Of a stretch of 64,000 nt of DNA, positions 7,028 through 55,750 are shown piece after piece (the stretch's first letter is position 1; every line of letters starts with the position of its first letter). Position numbers and translations under genes: made by a program. The notes under the pieces were generated by a model. The model had not been told where the DNA came from, searched no databases, and was given only the letters and a program-made list of their open reading frames with translations. Source of the DNA: a virus; the IMG/VR virus record IMGVR_UViG_3300025141_000025, positions 32,001 to 96,000 of that record; one strand, 5' to 3'.

Positions 7028-7987
7028 CTAATCCATTACGACAGTAAAAACATTGCAAAACGTCTCAGCACCAAATTTATCACGCAATATTTTACCTATA
7101 AAAAACACTCTAATTCCTGGACTTAATGGATCATCATCTATAAATTCTCCAAAATCTATAATTGATAGTTTATCAATGCCGGAAACATCTTGTTCAAAAA
7201 ATTGCACCACTAAATTATTCGACCTGGATGTTTTGCTAAAAGTAAATTCGCGATGTTGTTTGCCTTTTAGCGATGCTAAAATACCGTCTAGGGTGATAAT
7301 TTCTTTTTCATTTAATTTTGGATAATTTCCAATTTTATTCCCAATATCAGTACCGGGAATTGGCTTATTTACCGGAGGTAAATATTTGAAATTTGGAAAA
7401 TGCGAAAAACGCCTATCATTAAAAATGCTTGGTATTTCATCTAAAAACACTTTTCCTGTGCTGTCCGCACGGAAAAAATCTTTAAAGTTCTCGGTCGCTG
7501 TAAATGTACCTGTCACAGGAGATATAACAACCTCCTGATAAAGCGAAAACTCGTCTGTCGTTCCAATGATTCTTTGGTCAGTGAAATTTGTTGTTATCCC
7601 TTCTAGCATTGCCTCCATGGCGGGGCCTATATCACTTCCTGACAGGACGTTTGGTCTGTCGCTCATTCCTTCTGTAAAAGTGCCTGAAGCGATTGTGCCA
7701 CCCATGATCTCAAAATCAGATGTCCTAAACGGTCGTAGAGAATACCCTGCCTCCAACTCAGGTACTATTACATCCTGGTACCTGTTGTATGTCTCAAAAT
7801 ATATTTTGCTTGAGGCATCATCAGCTAAGCTGGGATTTAATAGACTTCCCGACGTCGTATAATTTGCATGCAAATCCGTGAAGGAGGCGAATCGGATTCT
7901 CATTTCTCCGGTGCCTGCTTGACGTTTTCCTTCCTGCGTAACTGTAAAATCCATTACGCGTTCTTTATTGTCTAATATTCCTGCCAT
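7028..7987 (-). CDS. Tail/baseplate structural protein with tail-collar-fibre-like N-terminus
   Basis: N-terminal DFTVTQEGKRQAGTGEMRIRFASFTD resembles the LTxxGRxxLAxxxxxITxxAxGD pattern of phage tail-collar/baseplate-attachment domains; first gene after the late motif. Confidence 0.55.
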   Translation of the reverse strand: MAGILDNKERVMDFTVTQEGKRQAGTGEMRIRFASFTDLHANYTTSGSLLNPSLADDASSKIYFETYNRYQDVIVPELEAGYSLRPFRTSDFEIMGGTIASGTFTEGMSDRPNVLSGSDIGPAMEAMLEGITTNFTDQRIIGTTDEFSLYQEVVISPVTGTFTATENFKDFFRADSTGKVFLDEIPSIFNDRRFSHFPNFKYLPPVNKPIPGTDIGNKIGNYPKLNEKEIITLDGILASLKGKQHREFTFSKTSRSNNLVVQFFEQDVSGIDKLSIIDFGEFIDDDPLSPGIRVFFIGKILRDKFGAETFCNVFTVVMD

Positions 7988-7991
7988 CTTT

Positions 7992-8001
7992 ACTAAATAT
8001 C
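7992..8001 (-). promoter_or_regulatory. Putative phage late promoter GATATTTAGT (copy 1)
   Basis: Exact 10-mer 4 nt upstream of ATG 7987; identical copies at 21801-21810 and 56109-56118, all intergenic and ahead of structural operons. Confidence 0.65.
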
Positions 8002-8054
8002 AACATAGTTCGGTTCAAAAAATGTGTGATGTTATAAATTGCCCGCCGGCGGGA

Positions 8055-9074
8055 TCAATCTTCAACACTTATTACTTTCGATATCTTATTTGTATCCACA
8101 CCAGACACAGTTGTATATTGAAACTCATGCGCGCCCATGTCATTTGGGGTTGCGGCGGCATTAATGCCATTTACTTTTTTTGAGTATTTCCATGTAACAG
8201 ACCCACTAGTAATGTCTGTTGTCCTAGACGAACCATTGGCGGCTCCTAAACAGGGAGATCCATTTTCTAATCTAAAGCTACTAGAATTGATCAGAGGGTC
8301 GGTCTCAATGTCACCTGTACCGGCACCACCATAAAAATTTCCGTTTGTGGCGCCATCACTTCCTGAGACACAGTTATAGGTGTGAGTGTCAGCCCTAATT
8401 CCAGCAGCCTTTATGTGATGAAAAGGGTCAGCTACAATACAATATTTCACTGTCCCAAGCGTTGCAACTATTCCGTAGCCGCCAGCGCCTTCGCCAAAAC
8501 ACGAATTGTATACAGTGCAGTGTGTGACGGTTGTCCCTTGTTGTGTTGCTGCAATTCCGTCGTGTTGAATATCGTATATAAGACAATTATCAATAGCAAC
8601 GGGCTGCACACCAGCACTGATGGCCCGTGAAGATGTGCCCCTCACATTATAAATGGTACAATCGCTGATTATACTACCACTCTTTGGTCCAGTAATTGCG
8701 TGATCGGTCAGGTTGTGAAGGGTACAATTTTTTATGTGTACTACCCTGATACCTGCAACTGAGATTAAGCCGGCGCCGCTTGTTGCTGTTCCATCATAAT
8801 CTGTAATTGTGAGGTCTTCTATAACCCAATTATTATAAAACTTTATCGCGCAATCTAGGGTGCCGCCGCCATCGAGAGTGGGTGTGTATTTATTTCCATT
8901 AGAATCCGTTCCCGCTCTTATCGTGAGATCAGCAGTAATCTTTGAAAGGTTACCCTCATTGTAGGTACCGCTATCTTGTATTTCTATTATGTCATATCTA
9001 TTAGCAGCAGCTAGCGCGGTTGCGATTGTTGTATAATCACCAGAACCATCCTGCTTTACGACACGAATGGCCAT
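8055..9074 (-). CDS. Right-handed beta-helix (pectin-lyase/pectinesterase-like) protein, tailspike/depolymerase-like
   Basis: VKQDGSGDYTTIATAL..SGTYNE pectinesterase-type N-terminus, repeated IxNCxIxN rungs, C-terminal FRLENGSPCLGA..DMGAHEF. Confidence 0.75.
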   Translation of the reverse strand: MAIRVVKQDGSGDYTTIATALAAANRYDIIEIQDSGTYNEGNLSKITADLTIRAGTDSNGNKYTPTLDGGGTLDCAIKFYNNWVIEDLTITDYDGTATSGAGLISVAGIRVVHIKNCTLHNLTDHAITGPKSGSIISDCTIYNVRGTSSRAISAGVQPVAIDNCLIYDIQHDGIAATQQGTTVTHCTVYNSCFGEGAGGYGIVATLGTVKYCIVADPFHHIKAAGIRADTHTYNCVSGSDGATNGNFYGGAGTGDIETDPLINSSSFRLENGSPCLGAANGSSRTTDITSGSVTWKYSKKVNGINAAATPNDMGAHEFQYTTVSGVDTNKISKVISVED

Positions 9075-9862
9075 TATGAAATTTCAACCCATGTGGAATC
9101 AGGATTAAAATAAAGCAACATGTCCCTGGTGTGTGTGTCTAGACAGTAGCCAACTATTCTAACAAAATCATTAGCACCGCTTGGCGCTGTAAATGCATAT
9201 TCGCCAGCTGTTGTTGACACAAAAACAGGATATCCCACTGCTGCTGTTCCGTTTATTAAAGTGGAAGAAATTCTAACAAACCCTTTTAGTAGCATGCCGT
9301 GATCGGTTGGACTAGTTCCCATGGCCACGCCTAAAAACTGACTTCCTCCGGATGATGTGGCATTGGCATTGGCATCAGCCCAAGAACCGTCCGTGTGCAA
9401 ATAATAAAGTTCACCAGCCACCGTGGTTCCGGTGCCGTACTTTAAAATATCGCCGCCCCCTTCACCACCTGTCAGTTGATTTTCAAAAGTTGTTGCATTA
9501 TAATCGTGCACAACATCCAAAGAGGTTTTGGCGGCTCCGGAGGTTGAAATTCCGACTGAACCCGTCGTGAAAATTTTTCCGACTGCTGCCTCCGTGAACA
9601 ATGAGCTGCCGCCGACGCCTGCACCAGATCCGACTTCGGAACCTGCCCACATTAGTGTGCCGTTTTCGTTATAGAGCCTGTGATCTGTTTTTGTGGGTGC
9701 TGCCTTGGGTGGGATTGAAATAGCAGCGTCCTTCAGCATGTCTGTAGGTAATCCTACCTGTATTCCATTTGGAAACACAACTTTGAGAACACGATTGTCC
9801 TTTTTACTTCTAAGGACAATTTTATCTTCCTGTACAACCTTGTCTAGTTCTATCTTTGGCAT
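9074..9862 (-). CDS. Tail-fibre-like virion protein
   Basis: Fibre motifs (LYNENGTLMW, IFTTGSVGIST) and a C-terminal GxPVFVSTTAG..TAPSGANDFVRIVGY domain typical of phage fibre/cement proteins. Confidence 0.6.
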   Translation of the reverse strand: MPKIELDKVVQEDKIVLRSKKDNRVLKVVFPNGIQVGLPTDMLKDAAISIPPKAAPTKTDHRLYNENGTLMWAGSEVGSGAGVGGSSLFTEAAVGKIFTTGSVGISTSGAAKTSLDVVHDYNATTFENQLTGGEGGGDILKYGTGTTVAGELYYLHTDGSWADANANATSSGGSQFLGVAMGTSPTDHGMLLKGFVRISSTLINGTAAVGYPVFVSTTAGEYAFTAPSGANDFVRIVGYCLDTHTRDMLLYFNPDSTWVEIS

Positions 9863-9871: not shown

Positions 9872-12800
9872 CTAAGACACATCAATGTTAACTTCAATAG
9901 GCTCAAGAACGATGTCAGGATTATCCAGCCTGTCTTTTACCTGCCCATCGTAGTAAGGCATTGTAGATGTTGCGTACGTATCCAAATTTTGGCTGTGGGT
10001 TTTTGCCGGATCAGTTGTTTCACCACTTTGACTGTCTTGAGGTACAAATATGATTTCAACAGGATAAGACAGACCTCCTTTACTGTCCAGAGTGACCGGA
10101 TATTTTCTCTGTTCCAGCATGTCTCTAAACTGTCCAAATCGATCCCTTCTCCACCTGCTATCAACTCTTGAACCAAAAATGCCCCCTAAGCCATACTTGT
10201 ATCCTCTCATGATTGGGGTAGAAATAAAAAAGCCGAATGCGGAGACCTTAAGGTCAGGTGTTGGTAAATTATAAGCGCCGTCTCCAAATCCCCACAACCA
10301 CCTGGTGGTATTTTTTCTAGCGCCTGGACTGTCAATGTAATTACCCCTTTCATCACTAGAGACGGTAGCAATTCCGTATGCTGAGCCGGATCCAAAAATA
10401 TATGCCGTATCTAACTGTTTAACTTCTCCGGCACCTTCCAGCTCGTTGTCACCGTCAAAAACTGACAATCGGGTACCTCTAAAACTTTGTGCCAGAAATC
10501 TCTGGTGCTTGATCTCATAGGCGGGGCGCATGTACCACTGCGTGTCGGATCCTGACAGGTCCTGTCCGCCGAGGGCATGAATATAATAGCTTCCCGTTGG
10601 TGCGCCAACTGCTATTGCTGCGTTTGAGAGGGCTGTTCCAAAAAGACCCTTACCCGATGCTTTTATCACCTCCAAGGCATTAGGGGGATAACTGTCATAA
10701 ACAGTTCCAATTGAGTCTGTCAATCTCACAAAACGCTGCAAAGAACCTGTCGTGCCAGCCTGCCCGCGGGCCACAGACGCAACGACCCCCCTAACATTAT
10801 CAACTGCCGGATTACCGTATGAACCATCGGCACCGGTAGCGAACATGGTGCCGGTAATGATGAGATCCACGTAAGAACCTGTTAGCGCCTGCTCGGGTTC
10901 CACATCCCACTGGTCATAGACAGGATTGTCGTAGTGCAGATCTTCGTGAATCGCGTCGGATGTGAGTGGTTGGTTACTTTTCTGTTCTACAGGTAAATTA
11001 TCCTGCAGCAAGGACCCAAAAAGTGTTAATGTGCCACCACCGGGCTCTAAATTATTCACGTATTCTTTGGCTATGTTTACTTCGGAGGGGGCGTTGGCGG
11101 AAGCTGGATCACCGACGGCACCCTGGTGGGAGTGCATTAAAACTAGTTTATCGCCAGGTAAAAGCACGAAAGGGCTCTCTCGGGACTCATGAAGATATGC
11201 ATCAAAAGGAATATATCCGCCTGCGGCCAGGGCCATGAATGAAACAGAGGAAGAAACTACCTGTGAGCCTATCACTGATCTTATGAAAGACCTGCCGTCC
11301 GCGCGATCTCGAAGATCTCGACCTCCTTTTTGTCGGCCGAAGAGCGTTCCCGGTGTGCCGGCGCCGTAGCCTCGTCCAAAAAATGCTGCTCCTACCCTGG
11401 GTTGTTTACACGGAATGTTTGGTGTACCGCGAAGAACAAACGAACCGGTGGGGTAGGCGCCGCCTTGAGGGAGCCATAAATCGGCCGCGGACCACGTTCC
11501 GGGAAAAGAAGAACTTAGAGCTGCTTCGGTTGCAAAACTATGTGTAAAGTATGTTCCAATTCGACCGTACCAGATAATACTCTTGTCGGTGTTTGAATCA
11601 AAAGTGGTTCCTGTCACCTCGAGTTTATCAACGTTATACCGATAAGTCTCAAAAAAAGTTTCTACTGATGCCGTGACTGGTTGTTCCCGTTGCAATACCA
11701 ACATAAATGTTGTAATCTGCATCTGCTCAGAGGCTGCGAGGACTGGGTACGTGCCGATAACACCCGAAAACCTCATTTCCACCTTTTCTAACAAAAATGG
11801 TGCCGTTATGGATGCTGTTGTATTATAAAGTTGCGAACTTGTGGCATTAAACTTTGTAGCATAGGGAAAACCTGCAACGTCAGTCGGGCCGCCTAGGCCA
11901 CCATTGAACGGTTGCATGTCCCAGGTCGCCAGATTCGTGCCGATATATTCAGCTGGAATTATGGAAAGCATGCTACCTGTGACAACCGCTTGGTCTTTGT
12001 TCAGGTAATCTACATTGCTTCCAGTCGTTAGATCTCCTACAATTTCCCACTTTTTTTGTTGAAAATTAAAATAAGCAAGACCCGAGTTGACACCTTCTGC
12101 AAGACCCTCAGCATTTGGCAAAGTCCCTGTGGATAAGGCCACACGAGTGGTTTCTGTTGGATTAATGTCGATTGTTAAGATGGTCTTCGATGACAACCGC
12201 TGGGCAAAACCCGGCAACGTGCCTGATGCCGTTCCTGTCGTATAAAATGCCGTCTCATTATCGAGGGTCACACGGCTTTCATTAAACGGCGTGATACTTT
12301 CACCGGGTGTGAAAGATATATGCGTGTCTGCAATACCCGCTGAGCACGAGCCAACTGTTTTCAAGCCTTGCAGGGCATTAGGTGTGGCGACGCCACCGGA
12401 AATAAATTTACTTCCTGGACCAGATTCTGGCAAACCTGTCGGGTAAATAATATTGCTGTCTGTCGAGAATACTATTGTGTTTGTGTCATCAAAACGCGAT
12501 GGATATGTTCCTAAAAAGTCAGGATCACCTGTTCTTGCCAGTGTCGGATAAGAACCGGTGTGATTGTCCTGGTCTTGTAACATTATCCTGGTAGGGTTGG
12601 AGATAATGCCCGAAACTGTTCCATTATCAAGTTTGGTAATATTATAAATTGCCTTGACATCTGCGGCACTCAGGGCATATCCCGACCACATCGCAAATTC
12701 TGAAATTTGTGCATCAGGTTCAGTGTCAGACTGATATGAAGCACCCACTTTCAGTGTATCATCATCATCTCTTTTCATCGACAGGTAACCCGAATCGCTA

Positions 12801-13465
12801 CTGTAATTCGAAGTTGTGTGTATTTCACCATTCAGGTATATTTTCATTCCTGCATATGCAGTATTCCCGCCGCTGCCGTCATATGTGAAAACAAGATGAT
12901 TCCACACTCCATTTAAATCACTTGTAGGGATATCTGAGGTTGATCGTATGCTTTGTGTTTTTGAGTTATCCTGATCATTTATGGCGAAGACTAATTGGTC
13001 GTAGTCAGCGTCCAGGTAAGCGTAGTACTCCGTAACGGAGGAAGTCCCCTTGCCAAAAAGATATGAAAGACCAGATGATGCGACGTTAGTAAAGTTTATC
13101 CACAAGCTTATCGAGAAAGCAGTATCGGAACCTGCTGCGGTCGTAGCTTCATCAGCTAAGCTAACATGTGATAGTATACCTGAACTTGGAGGTGTGACTG
13201 ACACATGCTGATTGGATGAATCGTTCGATGTGAATGTAAATCTAAGTGCGCCGCCCGGTGGATCCAGAGACTGGAGTTGACCGGCGGTTGGGCTATTTAG
13301 ATATATAGAAGTTAAATTATACGAAGCGTTGTCAGTCGGCGTTCCCGTTGTCATTTGTAACCACAAGACGAGACGCTCGGCAGCTGAGGCAGAGTAGCGA
13401 TTGCCTAAATTATCTTTAAACGGGCAATTAAGATCGTAATATTTTCCTTTTAGTTTTCTAGGCAT
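9872..13465 (-). CDS. Virion protein with concanavalin A/LamG lectin-like domain
   Basis: FSISLWIN..GVWNHLVFTYDGS..MKIYLNG..ISEFAMWS..ALSAADVKAIYN is a classic LamG_3 signature. Confidence 0.75.
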   Translation of the reverse strand: MPRKLKGKYYDLNCPFKDNLGNRYSASAAERLVLWLQMTTGTPTDNASYNLTSIYLNSPTAGQLQSLDPPGGALRFTFTSNDSSNQHVSVTPPSSGILSHVSLADEATTAAGSDTAFSISLWINFTNVASSGLSYLFGKGTSSVTEYYAYLDADYDQLVFAINDQDNSKTQSIRSTSDIPTSDLNGVWNHLVFTYDGSGGNTAYAGMKIYLNGEIHTTSNYSSDSGYLSMKRDDDDTLKVGASYQSDTEPDAQISEFAMWSGYALSAADVKAIYNITKLDNGTVSGIISNPTRIMLQDQDNHTGSYPTLARTGDPDFLGTYPSRFDDTNTIVFSTDSNIIYPTGLPESGPGSKFISGGVATPNALQGLKTVGSCSAGIADTHISFTPGESITPFNESRVTLDNETAFYTTGTASGTLPGFAQRLSSKTILTIDINPTETTRVALSTGTLPNAEGLAEGVNSGLAYFNFQQKKWEIVGDLTTGSNVDYLNKDQAVVTGSMLSIIPAEYIGTNLATWDMQPFNGGLGGPTDVAGFPYATKFNATSSQLYNTTASITAPFLLEKVEMRFSGVIGTYPVLAASEQMQITTFMLVLQREQPVTASVETFFETYRYNVDKLEVTGTTFDSNTDKSIIWYGRIGTYFTHSFATEAALSSSFPGTWSAADLWLPQGGAYPTGSFVLRGTPNIPCKQPRVGAAFFGRGYGAGTPGTLFGRQKGGRDLRDRADGRSFIRSVIGSQVVSSSVSFMALAAGGYIPFDAYLHESRESPFVLLPGDKLVLMHSHQGAVGDPASANAPSEVNIAKEYVNNLEPGGGTLTLFGSLLQDNLPVEQKSNQPLTSDAIHEDLHYDNPVYDQWDVEPEQALTGSYVDLIITGTMFATGADGSYGNPAVDNVRGVVASVARGQAGTTGSLQRFVRLTDSIGTVYDSYPPNALEVIKASGKGLFGTALSNAAIAVGAPTGSYYIHALGGQDLSGSDTQWYMRPAYEIKHQRFLAQSFRGTRLSVFDGDNELEGAGEVKQLDTAYIFGSGSAYGIATVSSDERGNYIDSPGARKNTTRWLWGFGDGAYNLPTPDLKVSAFGFFISTPIMRGYKYGLGGIFGSRVDSRWRRDRFGQFRDMLEQRKYPVTLDSKGGLSYPVEIIFVPQDSQSGETTDPAKTHSQNLDTYATSTMPYYDGQVKDRLDNPDIVLEPIEVNIDVS

Positions 13466-13466: not shown

Positions 13467-14408
13467 TTATTTCTTTAACCCTCCATACACAATGGAATCA
13501 TACGTATAATTGTCATTTTGTGAAAAGACAAAACCGTGCCTGGCAATGATCTCATCTTCTCTTGTATTTTCAGTTCGAAACGCCTTGTAGGATGTGGAAG
13601 CACTTACGAAGCCGTCCACCAAGACGTGCCTAATTTCTGTGTCAAGTGTTCCCGAGGCATAAAAAAGCTCTCGCTGAGTTGTGTCAGTAAACGGCAACAT
13701 GTTGGAATCTGCATCAGAAAAAGCGCCTGGTAAATCAACACCACCGAATGCCTCTTGGCTGTCTAAAAATGGCCTAGTGGAGCTATTTTTTAGATTTTTT
13801 TTGTCGTCAAATACTAAGCTTTCTCTTTTTGCATTTGTAGCGCACATGTCGCCTTTTATTGAATGTGAAACATACGGAAGCTCTATTGATGACCTATCAA
13901 CAACTTTTCTAATATCCAGAGGTTCAATCACACCGTCCATCGTAAGCGGAGAAGCAGTAACCTGGACTAGGCTTATCGGTAGTGAAACCGCAAGCGGGTT
14001 TGTCATCATAAACTCTACAGGGCTAGATTCCAAGGAGGTGGCCTCGACAAACGGCGAGCTATCGTTGTATGATAAGGACTGCCCCAGGTCTCGCCTGTCA
14101 ACAGTGTGGTAAACAACCTGGCCCAGTTTACCTGTCGTGTCAATGTTTGCTAATGATCCGGTGCCACTCGTTCCTAGATTTTCAGATATTACTGATTCGT
14201 TAAAAAAATCCTGTGTTTGTGGAACCTCATTAAGTGTTGTAACAAGCCCGGTATTCGAACGAATTTTTACTATTGTGTAATTTGTTAATTGGTGTGGCTG
14301 GCGTAGATTTGTTCCCTGCAAAAAAGGAGAGTGCGAAGATGAATAGTGTAGGACACTGGTTTCGTCAGTTCCGTTTTGCCAAATTGATCCTGTTGTCGCG
14401 CTTGCCAT
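13467..14408 (-). CDS. Hypothetical virion structural protein
   Basis: Translationally coupled within the baseplate operon; S/T-G-S/T rich. Confidence 0.6.
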   Translation of the reverse strand: MASATTGSIWQNGTDETSVLHYSSSHSPFLQGTNLRQPHQLTNYTIVKIRSNTGLVTTLNEVPQTQDFFNESVISENLGTSGTGSLANIDTTGKLGQVVYHTVDRRDLGQSLSYNDSSPFVEATSLESSPVEFMMTNPLAVSLPISLVQVTASPLTMDGVIEPLDIRKVVDRSSIELPYVSHSIKGDMCATNAKRESLVFDDKKNLKNSSTRPFLDSQEAFGGVDLPGAFSDADSNMLPFTDTTQRELFYASGTLDTEIRHVLVDGFVSASTSYKAFRTENTREDEIIARHGFVFSQNDNYTYDSIVYGGLKK

Positions 14409-40287: not shown

Positions 40288-40296
40288 TGTAAAGAT

Positions 40297-43232: not shown

Positions 43233-43571
43233 TTAATTTCCCCTGTAAGCCGTAATAGAAGTAATTTTTTCTTGATCACCAAATTCAATAATGTCAACAA
43301 CAGGTATTTCATCATCATTTGCCACCACAACAATTTCAGCAAAAATTCTGTTATTCACCTGTGATAAAGACTTAACTCTTACATCTAAATTTTCAACACT
43401 TTCAAATATAGAAGCGTTAGCATCCAAAACATCATTTTTTCCGTGACATAAAAGATTCCAATCCTGTAGCCTGACTTCATCGGCAAAGAATGAAGCCAAC
43501 TTCTCAATATTTTTATTTGACCATGCAATAAAATAATTTTTGGCATGGTCGGTTAGATTTTTATATTTCAT
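43233..43571 (-). CDS. SnoaL/NTF2-like protein
   Basis: YFIAWSNKNIEKLASFFADEV..VVDIIEF..ITSITAY. Confidence 0.75.
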   Translation of the reverse strand: MKYKNLTDHAKNYFIAWSNKNIEKLASFFADEVRLQDWNLLCHGKNDVLDANASIFESVENLDVRVKSLSQVNNRIFAEIVVVANDDEIPVVDIIEFGDQEKITSITAYRGN

Positions 43572-44808: not shown

Positions 44809-45530
44809 GATCCTACAAATCCCCTTTCACGAAGGTAAAGTGCCTCTGCTTGTTGAAATTTTGCATCTTCACTTTGAAATGTCTCAGGCTCCATTTTAAT
44901 GGTATAATGATAAGCAACTATTGGTTCAAAATGCCAATTACCAGCTGCCTGGTGTAAAATAGGAAGATAAATTGCTTGATCGCCTATTCTTTTAAAATAT
45001 TCGCCATCCTGGGCTTTGAAATTTTCATCCGGAACATTATTGATTAGTTTTTTCCGGAAAGTTTTTAAGTGTGAACTTACCCATGGGTGGGAATAAACAT
45101 TGGCATCTTTGGGTAAAGGTCCTGATATATTTTGATTTGTAAATGACCACCTATGTGCTGTCCACAATGCATCAACCCCCAATGTGTCATATCTATGATT
45201 AATAATAGATAATGCATCACAGTCACATAACCAATCATCACCATCCAAACGACAGACTATGTCATCATCATGACAATGCTCGAGAAGTTCTAGAATATTT
45301 CTGACTTCCCATTTCTTTGTTGTGTTTGTTTCAATAAATAATTTTTCATCCGGTATTGACAGGTACTCTTTTACGCCTGCCACAACATCAACAGTCGCAT
45401 CAGTTGACATATCATCACGAATCAATATCTTCCAATTATCATGTGTCTGAGACCAAACTGATAAAATTGTCCTAGCGATCGTGTCCTTTGCGTTATACGC
45501 CGGCATGATAAAAACGAATCTGTTGCTCAT
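44805..45530 (-). CDS. Glycosyltransferase, GT2 family
   Basis: MPAYNA; DDMSTD; LDGDDWL. Confidence 0.9.
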   Translation of the reverse strand: MSNRFVFIMPAYNAKDTIARTILSVWSQTHDNWKILIRDDMSTDATVDVVAGVKEYLSIPDEKLFIETNTTKKWEVRNILELLEHCHDDDIVCRLDGDDWLCDCDALSIINHRYDTLGVDALWTAHRWSFTNQNISGPLPKDANVYSHPWVSSHLKTFRKKLINNVPDENFKAQDGEYFKRIGDQAIYLPILHQAAGNWHFEPIVAYHYTIKMEPETFQSEDAKFQQAEALYLRERGFVGS

Positions 45531-49799: not shown

Positions 49800-49819
49800 A
49801 TGTCCTCTAGAGTGTCAGT

Positions 49820-51955
49820 TTAATCAGTAACCTCTTCCATAAGTATCCGATAAACCTTACCCGTCGCATTGTTTCTAAGGCTTAGGTATGATGGTTCCTC
49901 GATCATGGTCCAGTTACCTCTTTCATTCTGTAAGTGGAGGTCACCTGTATAAATGTTTGCCCAACGCTTAGATGCAGAACCTAGATTCCGAGTAGCGTCT
50001 CCATCAGGAAGCACATCGCCCCCGCCAGGTTTCAAGGTGATATCCCCAGACTCTGAAACCAGTGTGAGACCTGATGAACCTGAGATAAACGTCTCCGATG
50101 AGGCAACCGATATTGCGCTACCTGTAACCACCATGGTCCCATGGCCTGCACTTAGCATCACCCCGGTCGACCCAGAAACTGTTAGCATGCCATTTGTTGT
50201 TATATTACTAGTACCCACAGCATCAACCGAGAAAGAACTTCCGCCATCAATAGTTATTGCGCCGGAGGCATCGATATCTAGGGTTGAAGAATCAATGTCG
50301 ATAGCAACATCAGCCGCTGTACCAATATTAATTCCACTAGCACCATCGATAGAGGTAGTTCCCGCCGCATCAACGTCTATACCGCCACCGGAAGATGTAA
50401 TCGCGATTGCTCCTGATGCATCAACATCCACCTGTGTTCCGGAAGCAACTAGTGTTCCTCCAGTGGAGTGGATGCTTATACCGGTTGAACCAGAAAGGGT
50501 CAAAGCACCGTTTGTAGTAATATTAGAAGCACCCACTGCATCAATTGAAAAGGTTGAAGTGCCATCAATAGTGATCGCACCTGAAGAATCGATATCAAGT
50601 GCAGCTGTATCAATATCGAATGCAACATCCGCTGCTTTACCAATATTGATGCCGCCGGCACCATCGATATCCACGGTTGATGATGCATCAATGTTTACTG
50701 CTGTTCCTGAAGCAACAAGAGTTCCTCCAGTGGAGTGAATGTTGACACCACTCGATCCGGACAGTGTCAAAGCACCTTTTGTGGTGACGTTTGAAGCACC
50801 GACTGCATCCACTGAGAATGTGCTGGTACCATCAATTGTAATAGCACCTGAGGCATCAATATCTAATGCAGCGGAATCTATATCTATAGCGACGTCAGCC
50901 GCTGTTCCAATATTGATTCCACTAGCACCATCAATAGAAGTAGCTCCTGATGCATCAACATCCACCGCAGAACCTGATAAAACAATGTTTCCGTCCGTGG
51001 TATGTACCTTGACACCGACAGAGCCTGATAATGTCAATTCACCGTTTGTTGTCACATTAGACGCACCAACACCGTCAATTGAAAATGTTGATGTTGTATC
51101 AAGTGTAAACGTAGTAGAATCTACATCAAGAGCCGGCGCACCATTAAGATCTCCGGTAAACATTGATCCTGCGTAAAGCGCTCCAGACACACATGTGTCA
51201 CCACCAAAAACCGCTGTACCGGTAGAATCGCTGTATCCTTTCGAGCCGATCGCACCCGATACATAGAAGTTCATGTCTGTGGCGTTAGACGGATCGACGC
51301 TGGTTGCTGCACCACCAGAAAGAATCAAGACCAGATCGTCCGATCCTTCCACGAAAATTGCATGCGTTTTATTATTAGATTCAACTCGGAAATCAACACT
51401 AGCACCTTGTTCATTAAACACGGCACCACCAGATGAGCTTAAGAAAATATCCGCATCACCCGGTGTTGCAGAAGTTGTACCTATGTTCAAAGAACCTGTA
51501 GTTGCAATAAACGTATTTGCTGGTCCGGACCAACCCACAGCATCAGCACTTCCCCCGCCGCCGGCGGCTACAAACGTAACCTGACCGTTGGAAGCCGATG
51601 TTATTGTCATGTTGGTACCAGCAACAAGATATGAAAGTCCGTCCGTTGTTTGGTGGATGGAACCAGAAATACTACCGCCATTCACATCATAGTTTTCAAC
51701 TACCAACGCGCCTGAAATATAAGTGTCTCCACCAAATACAGAAACACCAATTCCTGTACCGGAGTCAGGACCCGAATCCCCTCGTCCTCCAATTGCACCG
51801 GACACAAAGAGAACCGCATCGGGGGCTACTTCGCTTGCATCAGGTAAGTGTTGATTACTAGCTACAGAAGGCGGTCGCCCCACAATAACTGTACCTGTCA
51901 TATAAATTTGGAAGTCTGTGTCTGCTGAACCAGATATGTTTCCAATTAAAGCCAT
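49820..51955 (-). CDS. Tail fibre with ~90-aa internal beta-repeats
   Basis: FGGD motif, IDGASGINIGTAADVAIDID repeats, C-terminal NLGSASKRWANIYTGDLHL domain. Confidence 0.85.
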   Translation of the reverse strand: MALIGNISGSADTDFQIYMTGTVIVGRPPSVASNQHLPDASEVAPDAVLFVSGAIGGRGDSGPDSGTGIGVSVFGGDTYISGALVVENYDVNGGSISGSIHQTTDGLSYLVAGTNMTITSASNGQVTFVAAGGGGSADAVGWSGPANTFIATTGSLNIGTTSATPGDADIFLSSSGGAVFNEQGASVDFRVESNNKTHAIFVEGSDDLVLILSGGAATSVDPSNATDMNFYVSGAIGSKGYSDSTGTAVFGGDTCVSGALYAGSMFTGDLNGAPALDVDSTTFTLDTTSTFSIDGVGASNVTTNGELTLSGSVGVKVHTTDGNIVLSGSAVDVDASGATSIDGASGINIGTAADVAIDIDSAALDIDASGAITIDGTSTFSVDAVGASNVTTKGALTLSGSSGVNIHSTGGTLVASGTAVNIDASSTVDIDGAGGINIGKAADVAFDIDTAALDIDSSGAITIDGTSTFSIDAVGASNITTNGALTLSGSTGISIHSTGGTLVASGTQVDVDASGAIAITSSGGGIDVDAAGTTSIDGASGINIGTAADVAIDIDSSTLDIDASGAITIDGGSSFSVDAVGTSNITTNGMLTVSGSTGVMLSAGHGTMVVTGSAISVASSETFISGSSGLTLVSESGDITLKPGGGDVLPDGDATRNLGSASKRWANIYTGDLHLQNERGNWTMIEEPSYLSLRNNATGKVYRILMEEVTD
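50150..51130 (-). repeat. Tandem intragenic repeats of ~270-300 bp (3 full plus partial) encoding beta-strand repeats
   Basis: Recurrent GINIGxAADVAxDIDxxxLDIDxSGAITIDGxSxFSxDAVGxSNxTTxGxLTxSGS units; boundaries approximate. Confidence 0.8.
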
Positions 51956-51975
51956 TTTTTACTCTCCTTGATTAT

Positions 51976-54900
51976 TCATTCGTCTAATGGGATGAGCGCC
52001 ATTTTAAACTTTTTGCCGCTCTTATTATTGACAACACAGAGGTAATCCTCTTCCTCCACGATTGTCCAATCTCCCCTTTCGTTCTTGAGATGTAAATCTC
52101 CAGTATAAATATTAGCAAATCTTCGAGTTGGTGAACCTAAATTAGAACCGTGATCAGCCCCCGGCAGGAACGACCCACTGGTCACTAAATCACCTCCAAA
52201 GAGGGCAGCACCCTTCACCGAGGATCCTGCAGCGCCAACTGTACCTGAAACGAAGAAATTAACATCTGTTCCATTAGCCTCATTGGAGCTGGTCGCTGCC
52301 CCGCCCGAAAGTATCAGAACCTGGTCTGTTGATCCGTTGACAAAGATACCTGTCTTATTATTAGTATTGACTGTAAAGTCCCAGCCTTGACTAGAAACAT
52401 CAAATACTACGTTACCCTTGGTATTGATTGCCCCCTGCGGCGCGTATAATGACAATGTGTTAGAGGCTTGCTGCCAATTGATGTAGTTGTTTGAGTCTTC
52501 TCCATAAACCTGAAAGTCTACACCGTGATCATCTTGTCCTAGTGTTAGTTTACCGTGATCACCACCATCAGCATCCCATTGGAGCCCGATAGCACTCGAG
52601 TCTTCTCCGTAGAATATAACATCCTGACCCGCGCCTGGAGTGCTGACATAAAGTGCTCCGGATATAACAGCATCACCACCAAAAACTGTAGTGCCTCTCG
52701 CAGAAGTTCCTCTAGATCCGACTGTTCCTGAAACATAGAAGTTAACATCAGCACCAGAGGCTTCATTATATGAAGTTGCTCCCCCTCCAGAAAGTATTAG
52801 AACTTGATCTGTTGATCCATCAACAAATAGAGCATTTTCTTTATTATCAGACTCAACTCTAAAATCGACTGCAGCACCTTGCTCATTGAATACTGCCCCG
52901 CCATCTGAAGCGAAGTAGATGTCAGCATTACCAGGAGTTGCAGAATTTGTACCTACACTCAAAGAACCGGTGGTTGCAATAATTTCGTTAGCTGGACCGC
53001 TCCACCCAACTGCATCAGCCGCTCCACCACCAGATGAAGCTATTGTTACCTGTCCATTTGTGCCGGATGCGATCGTAATGTTGGCTCCAGCAACAAGATA
53101 AGATAGACCGGCGGATGTTTGGTGAATGGATCCAGAAATTGAACCGCCGTTTACGTTGTAGTTTTCTACAGTCAGAGAACCGCTTGTTAGAACGTCACCA
53201 CCGAAGAGGGCAGTTCCTTTTGCGCCGGCGCCTCTTGACCCTACGGCACCAGAAACGAATAAATTAACATCAGTTCCGTTTGCCTCATTTGGGCTAGTTG
53301 CTGCCGACAATGCGCCTGATAGGATCAGCACCTGTGATCCGCTTAGGAATACCTGTCCTTCTGCTCCTAAATTAATGCCGCCCTTTGTGTCTAGGTGAAT
53401 GGAGTCAGCATCAGATGACTCAACATCTACATGGAATTTTTTTCCGCTAGTGGCATCTACGTCAAATAACATACCGCCGGCGGTTGATTTTAATTTTATA
53501 GAATCAGCATCATTTGCAGTCGTTGCTTGGATGAGTACTGTTCCGTATCCATTGGCACCATCTGCGTCTAATCGTATACCACCCTCATCAGTTGCCATCC
53601 ATATAGAGGTAGCAGATTGTGATTCGTCAACAGAAAGATAGAACGTTGGGTTCGTTGCAACAGTACCACAAATCCTTGTATCCAAACCCCTTCCGCCGAT
53701 ATACCGTGACATACCTGCAGTCGCAACCGGAGTAGACAAGTCATATCCAGCGTCTATGTGTATTATACCCTTGTTTGCAGAAAGTTGTATTGCCCTGTCA
53801 GAAGATGTTCCCGACTCTTTATCCGATTTTAGTTCAATCATCGGACTGTTCGTGCCGTCATCACCAGAAGCGCCGAGGTAAATGGGCACTGACATAGCTG
53901 TCGTTCCGCTTACGTATAAACCTCCTGACACCATCAGGTCTCCACCAAAAACCGATGAACCTCTTACGGAGGTACCCCTGGAACCAACAGAACCTGAAAC
54001 AAAGAAACTAGAATCAGCACCCGGAATGGGGGGTGCCGCTGACGAAAATTCTGCGCTAGTACTACCAACAACAACTTGAGATGATGTAACAGTAAGTTGA
54101 CCCGTACCAGAATTGAGACCTAAACCCATAGCCCCAGCGGCTATAACCAAACCGGCAGCTCCGTTGGTAGCTAACAAAAAAGCTTGCTGGTCAGTTTCAT
54201 CTGGGTCTAATATAATTCTACCGGCATTAATAGTCAGGTCATTGTCACCATCCTCACTTATTGTAGAATTGCCAACCTTAAGTGAACTTGATGCGTATAA
54301 AGTTCCACTAGTAAATAAATCACCACCGAACACCGCGGTGCCCTTTGCCGAAGTACCCTTGGAACCAATTGAACCAGAAACATAAAAAGCGATGTCCGGC
54401 TTTGCGGATTCATCTACAGAAGTAGCCGCTCCACCAGATAGAATTAAAACCTGTTCATTGGAAGGCTGGGCAATACCGTAGATTAGCTTTTTCCCGGTCG
54501 TATCTGCATAAACGTTAAAGTCAACGTCGTTAGCGCTGTTATTAATATTAATTTCTTTTTGGGAAGAAGCCTGATCAAGTTGCAATGTTACGGTGCCACC
54601 CGCCTCCAAGGTCATAACATTGTCAGTTAAATTAATTCTTGTATGTGTATCATTAATGTGGCTGATGTATTGAGAAACAAACAACCCATCAGAACCAGAA
54701 ATTGCAAGAGATCCCGTTGATGAAATCCACCCTGCGCCTTCTCCACCACCTGGGGTATTCCCTGCCGAACCTGTAAACCACCCAGTGACTTCTCCGATTC
54801 CACTTCCGCCTCCAAGGCCGTGAACCGTTCCGGAAATTACGACGTCGCCACCAAAGACTGCTGTTCCTCGGACAGATGTACCCCGAGAGCCGGCTGTACC

Positions 54901-55434
54901 AGAAACATAGAAATTGATATCAGCCGCAGCTGCCTCATTATATGAAGTTGCCCCTCCACCCGAAAGAATTAGGACCTGGTCTGTACTAGCATCAACAAAA
55001 ATTGAATGAGTCTTTGTGTTGGACTCTACCCTAAAGTCGTTTTCAGATCCACCCTCACCAGATTCGTTAACTACTAATCCCTCGTGGATGGTTGCACTTT
55101 GAGAAACGACCAGTGATCCTGAAACCATCAGGGATCCTGTCGTTACTTGATTAACCTCAGCAACCAGTTTTTCTGCGTACATTGTACCGGAAATTACGAC
55201 GTCTCCACCAAAAAGTGTGACCGCTTCGCGGGTGCTTTTACTACCGGTGACAAACATGAATACATCAGTACCCACATCAGCAAGGAGTGTGGCATTTGAT
55301 AAAGCCTCCCCTTCATAGTTTGCAGAATCCGAAGCAGAAACTATTAGTATGCTTGGTTTATTTCCGACACCTGAACCGGATGCAATTATCTGTGAAAGCC
55401 TAACCTGACTAGCTCTAAAATCTTTAGTTGCCAT
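51976..55434 (-). CDS. Long tail fibre protein
   Basis: Multiple QVLILSGG..NFYVSGxxGSxG..FGGDxxxSG repeats; C-terminal NLGSPTRRFANIYTGDLHL domain. Confidence 0.85.
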   Translation of the reverse strand: MATKDFRASQVRLSQIIASGSGVGNKPSILIVSASDSANYEGEALSNATLLADVGTDVFMFVTGSKSTREAVTLFGGDVVISGTMYAEKLVAEVNQVTTGSLMVSGSLVVSQSATIHEGLVVNESGEGGSENDFRVESNTKTHSIFVDASTDQVLILSGGGATSYNEAAAADINFYVSGTAGSRGTSVRGTAVFGGDVVISGTVHGLGGGSGIGEVTGWFTGSAGNTPGGGEGAGWISSTGSLAISGSDGLFVSQYISHINDTHTRINLTDNVMTLEAGGTVTLQLDQASSQKEININNSANDVDFNVYADTTGKKLIYGIAQPSNEQVLILSGGAATSVDESAKPDIAFYVSGSIGSKGTSAKGTAVFGGDLFTSGTLYASSSLKVGNSTISEDGDNDLTINAGRIILDPDETDQQAFLLATNGAAGLVIAAGAMGLGLNSGTGQLTVTSSQVVVGSTSAEFSSAAPPIPGADSSFFVSGSVGSRGTSVRGSSVFGGDLMVSGGLYVSGTTAMSVPIYLGASGDDGTNSPMIELKSDKESGTSSDRAIQLSANKGIIHIDAGYDLSTPVATAGMSRYIGGRGLDTRICGTVATNPTFYLSVDESQSATSIWMATDEGGIRLDADGANGYGTVLIQATTANDADSIKLKSTAGGMLFDVDATSGKKFHVDVESSDADSIHLDTKGGINLGAEGQVFLSGSQVLILSGALSAATSPNEANGTDVNLFVSGAVGSRGAGAKGTALFGGDVLTSGSLTVENYNVNGGSISGSIHQTSAGLSYLVAGANITIASGTNGQVTIASSGGGAADAVGWSGPANEIIATTGSLSVGTNSATPGNADIYFASDGGAVFNEQGAAVDFRVESDNKENALFVDGSTDQVLILSGGGATSYNEASGADVNFYVSGTVGSRGTSARGTTVFGGDAVISGALYVSTPGAGQDVIFYGEDSSAIGLQWDADGGDHGKLTLGQDDHGVDFQVYGEDSNNYINWQQASNTLSLYAPQGAINTKGNVVFDVSSQGWDFTVNTNNKTGIFVNGSTDQVLILSGGAATSSNEANGTDVNFFVSGTVGAAGSSVKGAALFGGDLVTSGSFLPGADHGSNLGSPTRRFANIYTGDLHLKNERGDWTIVEEEDYLCVVNNKSGKKFKMALIPLDE

Positions 55435-55435
55435 C

Positions 55436-55750
55436 TTATCCTCTATAGTTCTTTTCTATCACAAACAGAAAACTACCCTGCGCCGAACCGGTGATAGGGC
55501 CACCAACTGATTGTGAAAGCACCAATTTTGTATCTGTGTTGACATGCGAACCACTAAAAAAATTCACATTCCCATATGGATTTTCGGTGGTGTCATTACC
55601 AAAATGAGTCATAAATCCATAAAATTTACCCTTTGAATCTAGGTTTGTAACTTCGGCCCCTGATGATCCTGACAACAGGTGTACATTAGTTTCTATATTT
55701 GTCACCGTAACAGTAGGTCCTGTTAAAATTGAGAAATTAGATAACCTCAC
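55436..55750 (-). CDS. Small virion/fibre-associated protein
   Basis: Coupled ORF in the fibre operon; three S/T-G-S motifs. Confidence 0.6.
   Translation of the reverse strand: MRLSNFSILTGPTVTVTNIETNVHLLSGSSGAEVTNLDSKGKFYGFMTHFGNDTTENPYGNVNFFSGSHVNTDTKLVLSQSVGGPITGSAQGSFLFVIEKNYRG

What the first reader, a model, noticed from the sequence alone, without database searches (positions are those of the whole stretch)
7028..55750. Candidate virion O-glycosylation system: an [S/T]-G-[S/T] motif recurs across unrelated outer virion proteins that flank a glycosyltransferase island
Seen: approximate manual counts of [ST]G[ST] are ~24 in the 1152-aa fibre, ~15 in the 711-aa fibre, ~13 in the 730-aa fibre, ~15 in the 1197-aa LamG protein, ~13 in the 1160-aa wedge/LamG protein, 6 in the 514-aa protein, 4 each in the 313- and 319-aa proteins and 3 in the 104-aa protein, plus many SAS/TAS/SSS. 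I found none in the core gp6-like (614 aa), gp5-like (563 aa) or 1050-aa proteins and one in PrkA (643 aa). The motif occurs in different folds, so shared ancestry alone does not explain it. The two motif-rich gene blocks lie on either side of a sugar/GT island. Known: some mycobacteriophages O-glycosylate virion proteins with their own GTs, and Aah/TibC heptosylate Ser in xSGG repeats. Inference: the tripeptide is an acceptor sequon for the phage GTs, giving a glycan coat on fibres and outer baseplate.
Basis: partly seen in the sequence, partly recalled or inferred. Interest (0 to 1): 0.88.

Follow-up and report, generated by a model that had tools for sequence, protein, structure and literature searches.

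The report
Ser/Thr-Gly-Ser/Thr tag on phage tail surface
The outer baseplate proteins of this uncultured marine phage and its thousands of relatives carry the tripeptide Ser/Thr-Gly-Ser/Thr three to five times more often than chance, at exposed, selectively maintained sites; this may be where a phage-made sugar coat attaches, but no chemistry shows it and the link to the phage's sugar-transferase genes is only circumstantial.

Summary
It survives 10-residue local shuffles, SGS is the top tripeptide of 8000, sibling tripeptides are flat, and codons are diverse. One correction: half of the fibre sites lie in internal repeats (1.4x after collapsing). The solid signal is the eight non-fibre proteins, with 51 unrelated contexts (3.6x).

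The trait is lineage-specific. It is absent from T4 and weak in five other GT4-less phages. It is strong in Mel-JY01, immuto and 60-70 orthologues of each of two families (7.0 vs 1.4; 14.1 vs 3.1). Sites are conserved at short range with free S/T exchange, toggle with charged tripeptides, turn over at depth, avoid gp6, and are dispensable for folding in one subclade. This fits a density-selected surface motif, not a structural turn.

The glycosylation link is circumstantial. An adjacent GT4 pair is clade-core and syntenic with the baseplate genes, beside a hypervariable sugar cassette. But the pair persists where baseplate motifs were lost, resembles no known protein O-GT, and could modify DNA or host glycans. 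The GT9/Aah analogy is not supported.

This scan found the same phenomenon earlier in other genomes. Probability that it is an O-glycosylation sequon: about 0.4.

The parts
17897..19441 (-). 514-aa outer baseplate protein, a string of Ig/FN3/CBM-like beta-sandwiches; 6 motifs
   Evidence: 6 vs 1.4 expected. 73 orthologues average 7.0 vs 1.4, with 4 fixed sites showing free S/T exchange and about 9 toggling sites. AlphaFold pLDDT 84.7. Fold matches multi-beta-sandwich proteins and CBMs.
14408..17890 (-). 1160-aa LamG-domain baseplate protein; 14 motifs
   Evidence: 14 vs 3.5. Laminin_G_3. 64 orthologues average 14.1 vs 3.1 over 86 motif columns. Two sister orthologues have only 2-3. AlphaFold pLDDT 77.2.
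13467..14408 (-). 313-aa protein; 4 motifs
   Evidence: 4 vs 1.0; orthologues carry 1-7 at shifting positions.
9872..13465 (-). 1197-aa LamG-domain protein; 15 motifs
   Evidence: 15 vs 4.5, z 5.1; Laminin_G_3; 7 of 19 motif columns shared by all three sequences compared.
8055..9862 (-). 262-aa and 339-aa (right-handed beta-helix) proteins; weak or no enrichment
   Evidence: 2 vs 1.1 and 4 vs 1.4; Beta_helix PF13229 in the 339-aa protein.
7028..7987 (-). 319-aa protein; 4 motifs, preceded by a candidate late promoter
   Evidence: 4 vs 0.6; GATATTTAGT at 7993-8000.
47607..55750 (-). Fibre operon: 104-aa protein and three fibres (1152, 711, 730 aa); 55 motifs, about half in internal repeats
   Evidence: 24, 15, 13 and 3 motifs. 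In the three fibres, 50 sites collapse to 25 clusters, 1.43x after collapsing. Peptidase_S74 and End_tail_spike C-termini. Repeat units are visible.
19451..21786 (-). Inner baseplate wedge: gp6/Baseplate_J-like (614 aa) and gp25-like (163 aa); no motifs
   Evidence: 0 motifs each. PF04865, PF04965, phrog_6. The gp6 family pooled over 10 phages has 2 vs 8.8 expected.
25792..28247 (-). Clade-core pair of adjacent GT4 glycosyltransferases (GT4b 26970-28247, then GT4a 25792-26970); candidate enzymes
   Evidence: PF00534 and PF13692 above cut-off. Both keep the E-x7-E motif. Same order and adjacency in Mel-JY01 and immuto at 30-34% identity, and in L004, L089, L090, L092 and L096.
28279..30999 (-). 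Recurrent neighbours of the GT4 pair: PD-(D/E)XK nuclease, NAD-dependent sugar epimerase/dehydratase, UDP-sugar dehydrogenase
   Evidence: Pfam. PD-(D/E)XK lies directly upstream of the GT4 pair in every relative viewed. The epimerase and dehydrogenase recur in L094, L097 and L098 but are absent in L095.
31002..47419 (-). Variable sugar cassette: carbamoyltransferase, HldE-like kinase and cytidylyltransferase, GDP-Man-dehydratase-like, GT9-like (35106-35954), methyltransferase, GT4c (36560-37483), oxidoreductases, NTP-transferase/kinase, cupins, HAD, GT2 (44805-45530 and 45527-47419)
   Evidence: Pfam and NCBIfam. The members compared (carbamoyltransferase, GT9, GT4c, both GT2s, three unassigned ORFs) have no counterpart in the fetched Mel-JY01 and immuto regions. 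The cassette is replaced by NeuB/CMP-sugar or phosphonate pathways in closer relatives.
56110..56117 (-). Candidate late-promoter element (G)ATATTTAG(T) ahead of the fibre operon; further copies at 21802-21809 and 7993-8000
   Evidence: Four copies in the window, all on the coding strand, three in short intergenic gaps directly upstream of virion gene blocks. The total count is not above chance (4 vs 3.4); placement is the only argument.

Best explanation
[ST]-G-[ST], usually flanked by hydrophobic residues, is a surface motif whose density selection maintains on the exposed virion proteins of this 'Far-T4-like' marine phage clade (outer baseplate, fibres and, in relatives, the outer sheath domains). 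The most likely purpose is to act as the acceptor site for O-linked glycosylation of folded virion proteins in the infected cell by phage-encoded glycosyltransferases.

Proposed mechanism. The conserved GT4b-GT4a pair, fed by the neighbouring UDP-sugar dehydrogenase and epimerase, lays down a core sugar on one or both hydroxyls. The hypervariable downstream cassette (heptose and carbamoyl enzymes here; nonulosonic-acid or phosphonate pathways in relatives) decorates it. The result would be a strain-variable glycan coat.

Shown: the motif is real, specific, selected at the protein level, lineage-restricted, tied to exposure and dispensable for folding; and the GT4 pair is clade-core and syntenic with the baseplate genes.

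Inferred: that the motif is modified at all, that the modification is a sugar, and which enzyme does it.
For: **The motif is real and specific.**; 51 unrelated contexts in the non-fibre proteins.

**It holds across the family.** 7.0 vs 1.4 in 73 orthologues and 14.1 vs 3.1 in 64 orthologues.

**Selection acts on the hydroxyls.**
- Motif S/T keep a hydroxyl in 89% of comparisons against 64% for other S/T.
- S/T swaps are 20% against 11%; motif Gly is 92% conserved against 76%.
- One site occupied in 73 of 73 sequences uses SGS, SGT, TGS and TGT freely.

**Sites turn over while density is kept.**
- 86 motif columns occur in one family.
- Only 1 of about 17 sites coincides with 25%-identity homologues in Mel-JY01 and immuto, which are themselves 3-9x enriched.

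**Exposure.**
- Alternative residues at toggling sites are K, E, D and N.
- All 11 motifs of immuto's sheath lie in residues 62-345 (11 vs 2.4 expected); none lies in the gp18-core-homologous part.
- Immuto's tape measure protein is flat.
- The gp6 family has 2 vs 8.8.

**Dispensable for folding.** The P0229/P0237 subclade has 2-3 sites instead of 9-20.

**Not generic to phages.** T4 0.95x; Syn9, S-WAM2, P-SSP3, HTVC008M and phiKZ 1.26-1.6x with 0-3 significant ORFs; the clade 2.1-2.5x with 7-11.

**GT link.**
- Every motif-rich phage has the GT4 pair.
- The pair is syntenic with the baseplate block.
- Cassette cargo such as NeuB or PEP mutase is typical of surface glycans.
- In Mel-JY01 a GT4+GT9 fusion gene is flanked by motif-rich fibre-like genes.
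Against: - There is no chemical evidence anywhere.
- Co-occurrence of the motif and the GT4 pair is a single clade-level event, so it is phylogenetically one data point. RM378 is at best a weak second: 1.87x overall, with one gene cluster at 25 vs about 7.
- The subclade that lost the motif from three baseplate proteins keeps both GT4 genes with intact E-x7-E. Other proteins there remain enriched, so this neither supports nor refutes the link.
- L094, which is motif-poor in its baseplate, still has the dehydrogenase, epimerases and GT4 core.
- GT4a and GT4b show only generic GT4 similarity: GtfA TIGR02918 scores 15 bits against a 575-bit cut-off, and PDB hits are BshA, TreT and similar.
- The GT4 pair always sits next to a PD-(D/E)XK/Dna2-like nuclease, and GT4a matches the 'GT4-conflict' family. 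Both are compatible with DNA glycosylation instead.
- No candidate late promoter precedes the pair.
- TJE1 has a distant GT4b homologue and no enrichment.
- After collapsing repeats the fibres are not above background.
- The secondary-structure context does not differ from that of ordinary Gly.
Confidence: 0.4

Rival explanations
1. The motif is an unmodified surface or biophysical feature. A Gly flanked by two small hydroxyl residues at exposed strand ends and loops would be selected for solubility, hydration, flexibility, low stickiness or resistance to proteases in seawater. The glycosyltransferases would serve something else.
For: - The secondary-structure distribution is the same as for other Gly triplets.
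- There is a hydrophobic preference at -1 and +3, consistent with amphipathic surface strands.
- A mild 1.3-2x excess also occurs in long fibres of GT-less phages: HTVC008M 17 vs 7.5, S-WAM2 17 vs 8.0, phiKZ 8 vs 2.4.
- The GT4 pair is retained where baseplate motifs were lost.
Against: - The specificity is hard to explain biophysically: [ST]A[ST], [ST]N[ST], [ST]G[^ST] and [^ST]G[ST] are all flat.
- T4's homologous machinery has none.
- Whole sets of sites can be swapped for charged residues without losing the proteins.
- The requirement is for the hydroxyl on both sides, with free S/T exchange.
Confidence: 0.3
2. The motif is an acceptor for a different O-linked modification (phosphorylation, acylation, ADP-ribosylation or another), made by a phage or host enzyme other than the island GTs.
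For: - Selection is for the hydroxyl itself.
- The GT link is only circumstantial.
- The genome encodes PrkA-family and other modifying enzymes: PrkA at 60347-62278; ART-like cargos are noted elsewhere in the genome by earlier first-stage readers (unverified).
Against: No enzyme of this kind co-varies with the motif in the data gathered. PrkA has 1 motif and is not known to act on virion proteins. The sugar cassettes sit between the two virion gene blocks.
Confidence: 0.1
3. The excess is a structural repeat or fold signature: a beta-helix or beta-sandwich turn motif inherited with the domains. The GT island modifies phage DNA or host surface glycans.
For: - This is true for about half of the fibre sites. 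Repeated units such as FGGDxVxSGS and TTNGxLTLSGSxGV account for them.
- L095's long fibre has one cluster of 8 repeat-borne sites.
- Phage GTs are well known to hypermodify DNA (Pyle et al. 2024, cited in PMC12619734).
Against: - The 51 non-fibre sites have no flank similarity.
- Positions are not conserved at deep divergence.
- One subclade dispenses with them.
- Secondary-structure contexts are heterogeneous.
- T4 homologues lack them.
Confidence: 0.15

Closest known systems
Mycobacteriophage virion glycosylation by phage-encoded glycosyltransferases (Freeman et al. 2023, Cell Host Microbe 31:1216; known here through its description in PMC12619734; the paper itself was not readable)
   Same: Phage-encoded GTs next to structural genes, with exposed virion proteins proposed as targets.
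   Different: There, glycans sit on the C-termini of the capsid and tail-tube subunits and were shown chemically. Here the candidate sites are a dispersed tripeptide on baseplate, fibre and sheath surfaces. The phage clade (marine myoviruses) and the enzymes (a conserved GT4 pair) are different, and nothing has been shown chemically.
Aah/TibC autotransporter heptosyltransferases (BAHT family; NCBIfam TIGR04414 'autotransporter strand-loop-strand O-heptosyltransferase'; Yao et al. 2014, PMC4358343)
   Same: Cytoplasmic O-glycosylation of many Ser residues on short loops of a folded beta-rich protein, with the enzyme gene next to the substrate gene. The window has a GT9-family gene plus HldE-like heptose-activation genes.
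   Different: The GT9-like protein scores 21.6 bits against a 200-bit cut-off and scores equally against LPS heptosyltransferases. It is absent from immuto and was not among the called genes in the regions viewed of L097 and L098, so it cannot explain a clade-wide motif.
GtfA/GtfB two-protein O-GlcNAc transferase of streptococcal serine-rich-repeat adhesins
   Same: Two adjacent GT-B/GT4-like genes, with cytoplasmic modification of many Ser residues on a surface protein.
   Different: No significant similarity (TIGR02918 15.2 bits against a 574.6-bit cut-off; PDB 4PQG and 5E9T at E about 0.1). Both phage proteins keep the catalytic E-x7-E, whereas GtfB is a non-catalytic partner (the latter from my own knowledge). 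The targets are not Ser-rich repeats.
Virus-encoded glycosyltransferases that hypermodify DNA (Pyle et al. 2024, cited in PMC12619734)
   Same: Phage GT-B enzymes with nucleotide-sugar supply genes. The GT4 pair is adjacent to a nuclease and matches the 'GT4-conflict' Pfam family.
   Different: DNA modification would not explain a protein motif. Cassette cargo such as nonulosonic-acid or phosphonate pathways is, to my knowledge, typical of surface glycans rather than DNA modification.

Membership tests
CAZy GT4 / Pfam Glycos_transf_1 (for 25792-26970 and 26970-28247) | Pfam PF00534/PF13692 match above the gathering score | tested here: met
   32.5 and 35.9 bits against a 26.4-bit cut-off.
CAZy GT4 / Pfam Glycos_transf_1 (for 25792-26970 and 26970-28247) | Catalytic E-x7-E motif in the C-terminal Rossmann domain | tested here: met
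   EGFGLPLLE (GT4a) and EGFGLGTLE (GT4b), conserved in L004, in Mel-JY01 (GT4a only), in immuto (GT4b only), and in L089, L090 and L092.
BAHT (Aah/TibC) protein O-heptosyltransferases (for 35106-35954) | Match to TIGR04414 at or above its cut-off (200 bits) | tested here: not met
   21.6 bits. LPS heptosyltransferase II and III models score 23.6 and 22.9. Pfam GT9 scores 24.7 bits, just over its 22-bit cut-off.
BAHT (Aah/TibC) protein O-heptosyltransferases (for 35106-35954) | Co-inheritance with its substrate; here, presence in the motif-rich relatives | tested here: not met
   No counterpart in the fetched GT-bearing regions of Mel-JY01 and immuto. PF01075 is absent from immuto and present in Mel-JY01 only as part of a different 1226-aa fusion. 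No GT9 gene was called within 10 kb upstream of the GT4 pair in L097 or L098.
BAHT (Aah/TibC) protein O-heptosyltransferases (for 35106-35954) | ADP-heptose donor supply | tested here: inconclusive
   A PfkB kinase (32996-33778), a cytidylyltransferase-like protein (33732-34133) and a HAD phosphatase (43568-43942) resemble a split HldE plus GmhB, but no GmhA isomerase was identified.
GtfA/GtfB accessory-Sec O-GlcNAc transferase | Match to the GtfA equivalog TIGR02918; one catalytic and one non-catalytic subunit | tested here: not met
   15.2 bits against a 574.6-bit cut-off. Both phage subunits retain E-x7-E.
Phage virion glycosylation system (mycobacteriophage type) | Phage-encoded GTs adjacent to virion genes | tested here: met
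   The GT4 pair lies 1.4 kb upstream of the hub and baseplate genes, and the island lies between the fibre and baseplate blocks. This arrangement is conserved in relatives.
Phage virion glycosylation system (mycobacteriophage type) | Glycans demonstrated on virion proteins | not testable with these tools
   Needs mass spectrometry or glycostaining of virions. No paper on this clade reporting it was found.
Phage virion glycosylation system (mycobacteriophage type) | Acceptor region is a C-terminal extension of the capsid or tail-tube subunit | tested here: not met
   Sites are dispersed along baseplate, fibre and sheath proteins.
DNA-hypermodifying phage glycosyltransferases | Co-occurrence with base-hydroxymethylation genes; modified DNA | not tested
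   Only the 64-kb window is held. Nothing of this kind was found in the window. The adjacency to PD-(D/E)XK is the only hint.

The most novel reading that the evidence does not exclude
An abundant, globally distributed clade of marine and freshwater 'Far-T4-like' myoviruses (over 1,500 family members in public metagenomes) coats the exposed faces of its baseplate, fibres and sheath with O-linked glycans. The glycans would attach at a defined minimal sequon, [ST]-G-[ST], through a clade-core pair of GT4 enzymes, and would be diversified by an O-antigen-like hypervariable cassette (heptose/carbamoyl, nonulosonic acid or phosphonate). This would be the first defined O-glycosylation sequon in phages, and a virion 'serotype' system.
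Probability: 0.3. Interest if true: 0.9.

Novelty: new variant of a known kind. Interest (0 to 1): 0.7.

Why it matters
If the motif is a glycan attachment site, several things follow.

- Virion glycosylation would extend from a few actinobacteriophages to a very abundant aquatic phage clade.
- It would supply a simple, predictive sequon.
- It would imply that phage particles carry strain-variable glycan coats, with consequences for host recognition, grazing or adsorption losses, and particle stability in seawater.
- It would reassign the frequently seen 'LPS/capsule-like auxiliary metabolic genes' of marine phages to a virion function.

Even if the sites are unmodified, a three-residue motif under density selection on exposed virion surfaces, and avoided by inner proteins, is an unexplained rule of phage protein evolution. 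It is directly testable in two cultured relatives.

Tried and rejected
- **DNA-level cause:** rejected. There are 73 distinct 9-mers for 104 sites, and Ser codon usage is normal.
- **Local composition:** rejected (10-, 20- and 40-residue shuffles).
- **Generic property of phage fibres and baseplates:** rejected for the non-fibre proteins (T4 flat; six more phages). Accepted for roughly half of the fibre sites.
- **Single structural turn type:** rejected.
- **Ancestral positional conservation:** rejected.
- **GT9/Aah-TibC as the enzyme:** rejected as the clade-wide explanation.
- **GtfA/GtfB-like active-plus-inactive pair:** rejected.
- **T4-type late promoter TATAAATA:** not present above chance.
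- **Natural experiment on the motif-poor subclade:** inconclusive. The two low lineages are one sister clade. They keep the GT4 pair, and they keep motif-rich proteins elsewhere.
- **PDB sequence search with the 1152-aa fibre:** nothing found.
- **Whole-record searches of the metagenome contigs:** not possible. No whole genome is held for the window.
- **Literature:** Freeman et al. 2023 was not readable. No paper on Mel-JY01 was found.
- **Sheath core versus outer split:** on its own not significant once composition is allowed for (P = 0.12). Only the 11 vs 2.4 excess in the outer part is.
- **Complex prediction:** not used. I make no claim that the two GT4 proteins bind each other.


Full report
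**Anatomy.** All genes in the window are on the minus strand. Read in the direction of transcription (high to low coordinates), the order is:
- PrkA/SpoVR and a PIN-PhoH protein.
- A fibre operon: 115 aa, 104 aa, then fibres of 1152, 711 and 730 aa (55747 down to 47607).
- A ~19-kb sugar island (47419 down to 28279).
- Two adjacent GT4 glycosyltransferases: GT4b (26970-28247), then GT4a (25792-26970).
- A small ORF, a late-sigma-like protein (phrog_234), and hub-side proteins.
- A gp25-like protein and a gp6/Baseplate_J-like protein.
- A run of large proteins (514, 1160, 313, 1197, 262, 339, 319, 1050 and >1284 aa).

- Pooled over the 11 proteins, [ST]G[ST] occurs 104 times against 32.0 expected (z 12.7).
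- Shuffling only within 10-residue windows still expects 36.5 (z 12.2), so local S/G/T-rich patches are not the cause.
- The signal is specific. [ST]A[ST], [ST]N[ST], [ST]D[ST], [ST][ST][ST], G[ST]G, [ST]G[^ST] and [^ST]G[ST] all lie between 0.7x and 1.2x.
- Forms flanked by a hydrophobic residue reach about 6x.
- In an unbiased scan of all tripeptides, SGS ranks first in the pooled outer set and, independently, in the non-fibre set, where TGS and TGT rank second and fourth. In the fibres alone SGS ranks second, behind the overlapping VSG.
- The 104 sites are written with 73 different 9-mers, so selection acts on the protein.

**A correction on the fibres.** Many fibre sites sit in obvious internal repeats. 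Clustering sites by flank similarity collapses 50 fibre sites to 25 clusters, which leaves 1.43x. The 51 sites in the eight non-fibre proteins have no flank similarity at all, which gives 3.58x. The claim that 'shared ancestry does not explain it' is therefore right for the baseplate-side block but not for much of the fibre count.

**The trait is lineage-specific.**
- T4's fibres and baseplate are flat: gp34 5 vs 3.3, gp37 4 vs 4.2, gp12 1 vs 2.0, gp10 0 vs 1.3, gp7 1 vs 0.9, and 36 vs 38 overall.
- Five more phages, searched and found to lack GT4 and GT2 genes, have genome-wide ratios of 1.26-1.60 and 0-3 individually significant ORFs. T4, which was not searched for these families, is flat with 1.
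- The only cultured relatives found by the gp6-like protein (28-29% identity) are Microcystis phage Mel-JY01, the Flavobacterium immuto phages and the 484-kb uncultured phage LR756508.
- Mel-JY01 and immuto show the same pattern as the window. Their gp6 homologues have 0-1 motifs. The proteins downstream are 3-9x enriched. Genome-wide ratios are 2.2 and 2.1, with 11 and 10 significant ORFs. LR756508 is weaker.
- In immuto the tail sheath is enriched (11 vs 2.6) and the tape measure protein is not (2 vs 1.8).

**How the sites evolve.**
- The 514-aa and 1160-aa proteins belong to very large metagenomic families: 1,591 hits at E <= 1e-5 and 662 at E <= 1e-20.
- 73 orthologues of the first (49-91% identity) average 7.0 motifs against 1.4 expected. 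64 orthologues of the second (42-67%) average 14.1 against 3.1.
- Against ~60-70% orthologues, motif Ser/Thr keep a hydroxyl in 89% of comparisons (64% for other Ser/Thr), swap S/T twice as often, and the motif Gly is 92% conserved against 76%.
- A few sites are fixed yet use all four variants freely; one column reads SGS 33, SGT 27, TGS 10, TGT 3.
- Many other sites toggle between the motif and KGE, EKE, NKR, KGL or DGA.
- The 1160-aa family uses 86 different alignment columns.
- In the segments alignable with Mel-JY01 and immuto at ~25% identity, only 1 of about 17 sites coincides, although all three lineages keep the excess.
- One subclade (P0229 and P0237, sisters on the tree) has 2-3 sites where all others have 9-20. 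The former sites are now acidic or polar.
- Together this shows short-range conservation of the hydroxyls, long-range turnover, maintained density and dispensability for the fold. That is the behaviour of a density-selected surface motif such as a modification sequon, not of a fold-determining turn.

**Structure.**
- AlphaFold models (pLDDT 84.7 and 77.2) place the 20 sites at strand edges (11), loops (4), mid-strand (3) and helix edges (2). Other Gly-centred triplets in the same proteins have essentially the same distribution. There is no stereotyped structural niche, but this test cannot measure exposure.
- The 514-aa protein is a string of Ig/FN3/CBM-like beta-sandwiches.
- On a scaffold of known architecture, immuto's sheath, all 11 sites lie in residues 62-345 (11 vs 2.4 expected). 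None lies in residues 418-708, which align with the conserved C-terminal part of T4 gp18 (0 vs 0.5).
- From established knowledge of gp18 (Aksyuk et al. 2009, recalled, not checked here), the N-terminal and middle domains protrude outward.
- The outer-versus-core split alone is not significant once composition is allowed for (P = 0.12).
- The inner baseplate protein gp6 has 2 motifs against 8.8 expected, pooled over ten related phages. These sequences are related, so they are not independent.

**The glycosyltransferases.**
- The island encodes three GT4, two GT2 and one weak GT9 protein. It also encodes sugar-nucleotide enzymes, a carbamoyltransferase and a methyltransferase.
- Only the GT4b-GT4a pair is conserved. 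It keeps the same order and adjacency in Mel-JY01 and immuto at 30-34% identity, as deep as gp6 itself. Of the other eight island genes compared, none had a counterpart in the regions fetched from them.
- In the phage collection, GT4b homologues occur in exactly the gp6-sharing set, plus RM378 and TJE1.
- In the closer relatives examined, the block PD-(D/E)XK, GT4b, GT4a, small ORF, sigma-like and baseplate is syntenic. A UDP-sugar dehydrogenase and an epimerase usually precede it.
- Both GT4s keep E-x7-E.
- Upstream of this core, the cassette differs completely between relatives: NeuB, CMP-sugar synthetase and a TylF methyltransferase in one, and PEP mutase, a TPP decarboxylase and a radical-SAM enzyme in another. 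This resembles an O-antigen-like variable locus.
- RM378 has a single GT4b homologue and a moderate excess: 1.87x overall, with one cluster at 25 vs about 7. TJE1, with a 24.5% homologue, has none.

**Limits of the glycosylation reading.**
- The motif and the GT4 pair are both clade traits, so their co-occurrence is essentially one evolutionary observation.
- The motif-poor subclade keeps the GT4 pair intact. Those phages still have motif-rich proteins with unrelated contexts: a 1923-aa LamG/RCC1 protein (12 vs 4.2) and a 540-aa fibre (7 vs 1.9). The test therefore decides nothing.
- The GT4s resemble no characterised protein O-glycosyltransferase.
- They always sit next to a Dna2/Cas4-like nuclease, and GT4a matches 'GT4-conflict'. 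DNA glycosylation (Pyle et al. 2024) or host-glycan remodelling remain open roles.
But the GT9-like gene fails the family test and is not conserved.
- A candidate late-promoter element, GATATTTAGT, precedes the fibre operon, the gp25/gp6 block and the 319-aa block, but not the GT4 pair.

**Earlier scan notes.** The same phenomenon was flagged and followed up on several other genomes of this clade and on the preceding window of this genome. I treated those as leads. The conserved GT pair and the sheath localisation were re-tested here and hold. The claim that a lineage lacking the island lost the motif is only partly echoed by my data: L095 has a nearly empty island and motif-poor baseplate proteins, but its fibres are still motif-rich.

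**Verdict.** I put about 0.4 on O-glycosylation by phage GTs, 0.3 on an unmodified surface motif, 0.1 on another O-linked modification, and 0.15 on a purely structural or repeat origin with the GTs doing something else. Mass spectrometry on immuto or Mel-JY01 virions would settle it.

Noticed in passing
window 7993-8000, 21802-21809, 56110-56117 (minus strand); also 38820-38827: The element (G)ATATTTAG(T) sits 5-25 nt upstream of the start codons of three virion gene blocks. It is a candidate late promoter of this lineage, which lacks T4's TATAAATA. A fourth copy lies inside an island gene. The total count is not above chance; only the placement is notable.
   Followed up: partly
L097:720-6070 and L098:1-4695 (relatives), compared with window 31002-47419: The sugar cassette upstream of the conserved GT4 core is swapped wholesale between related phages. 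One carries a nonulosonic-acid pathway (NeuB, CMP-sugar synthetase). Another carries a phosphonate pathway (PEP mutase, TPP decarboxylase, B12/radical-SAM enzyme). The window carries heptose and carbamoyl enzymes.
   Followed up: partly
L013:3442-4933 (Mel-JY01 record about 83.4-84.9 kb): In Mel-JY01 the GT4b orthologue is split into two ORFs (190 and 302 aa) that correspond to the N- and C-terminal Rossmann domains. This could be a genuine split GT-B enzyme, a frameshift or a sequencing error.
   Followed up: no
Mel-JY01 record 2234-9986 (L012): A 1226-aa GT4+GT9 fusion protein is flanked by fibre-like ORFs. One is a 508-aa protein with FGDTxDDTHxFTGSxxxSGS repeats. Another is a 180-aa protein with a collagen-like GSS/GTS run.
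   Followed up: partly
window 49776-49799 and 51932-51955 (N-termini of the 730- and 711-aa fibres); L095:87-4244 and 4367-5989: Fibre paralogues share an N-terminal MALIGxISGS / xGLxVSNISGS module, which is probably the baseplate-attachment end. It is conserved even in the subclade with motif-poor baseplate proteins.
   Followed up: no
L090:14544-20315: In the motif-poor subclade, the LamG protein downstream of the baseplate has grown to 1923 aa and acquired RCC1/WD40-like beta-propeller repeats. It might cover the proteins that lost their motifs.
   Followed up: no
window 56135-57439 and 60347-63641: A PIN-PhoH fusion and a PrkA-SpoVR pair (stress or sporulation-type host-like genes) lie just upstream of the fibre operon.
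   Followed up: no
window 3-7017: Two very large proteins (1050 aa and over 1284 aa) at the end of the baseplate operon have no Pfam or PHROG match and no motif excess (0 vs 1.5; 3 vs 2.3). Their place in the virion is unknown.
   Followed up: partly
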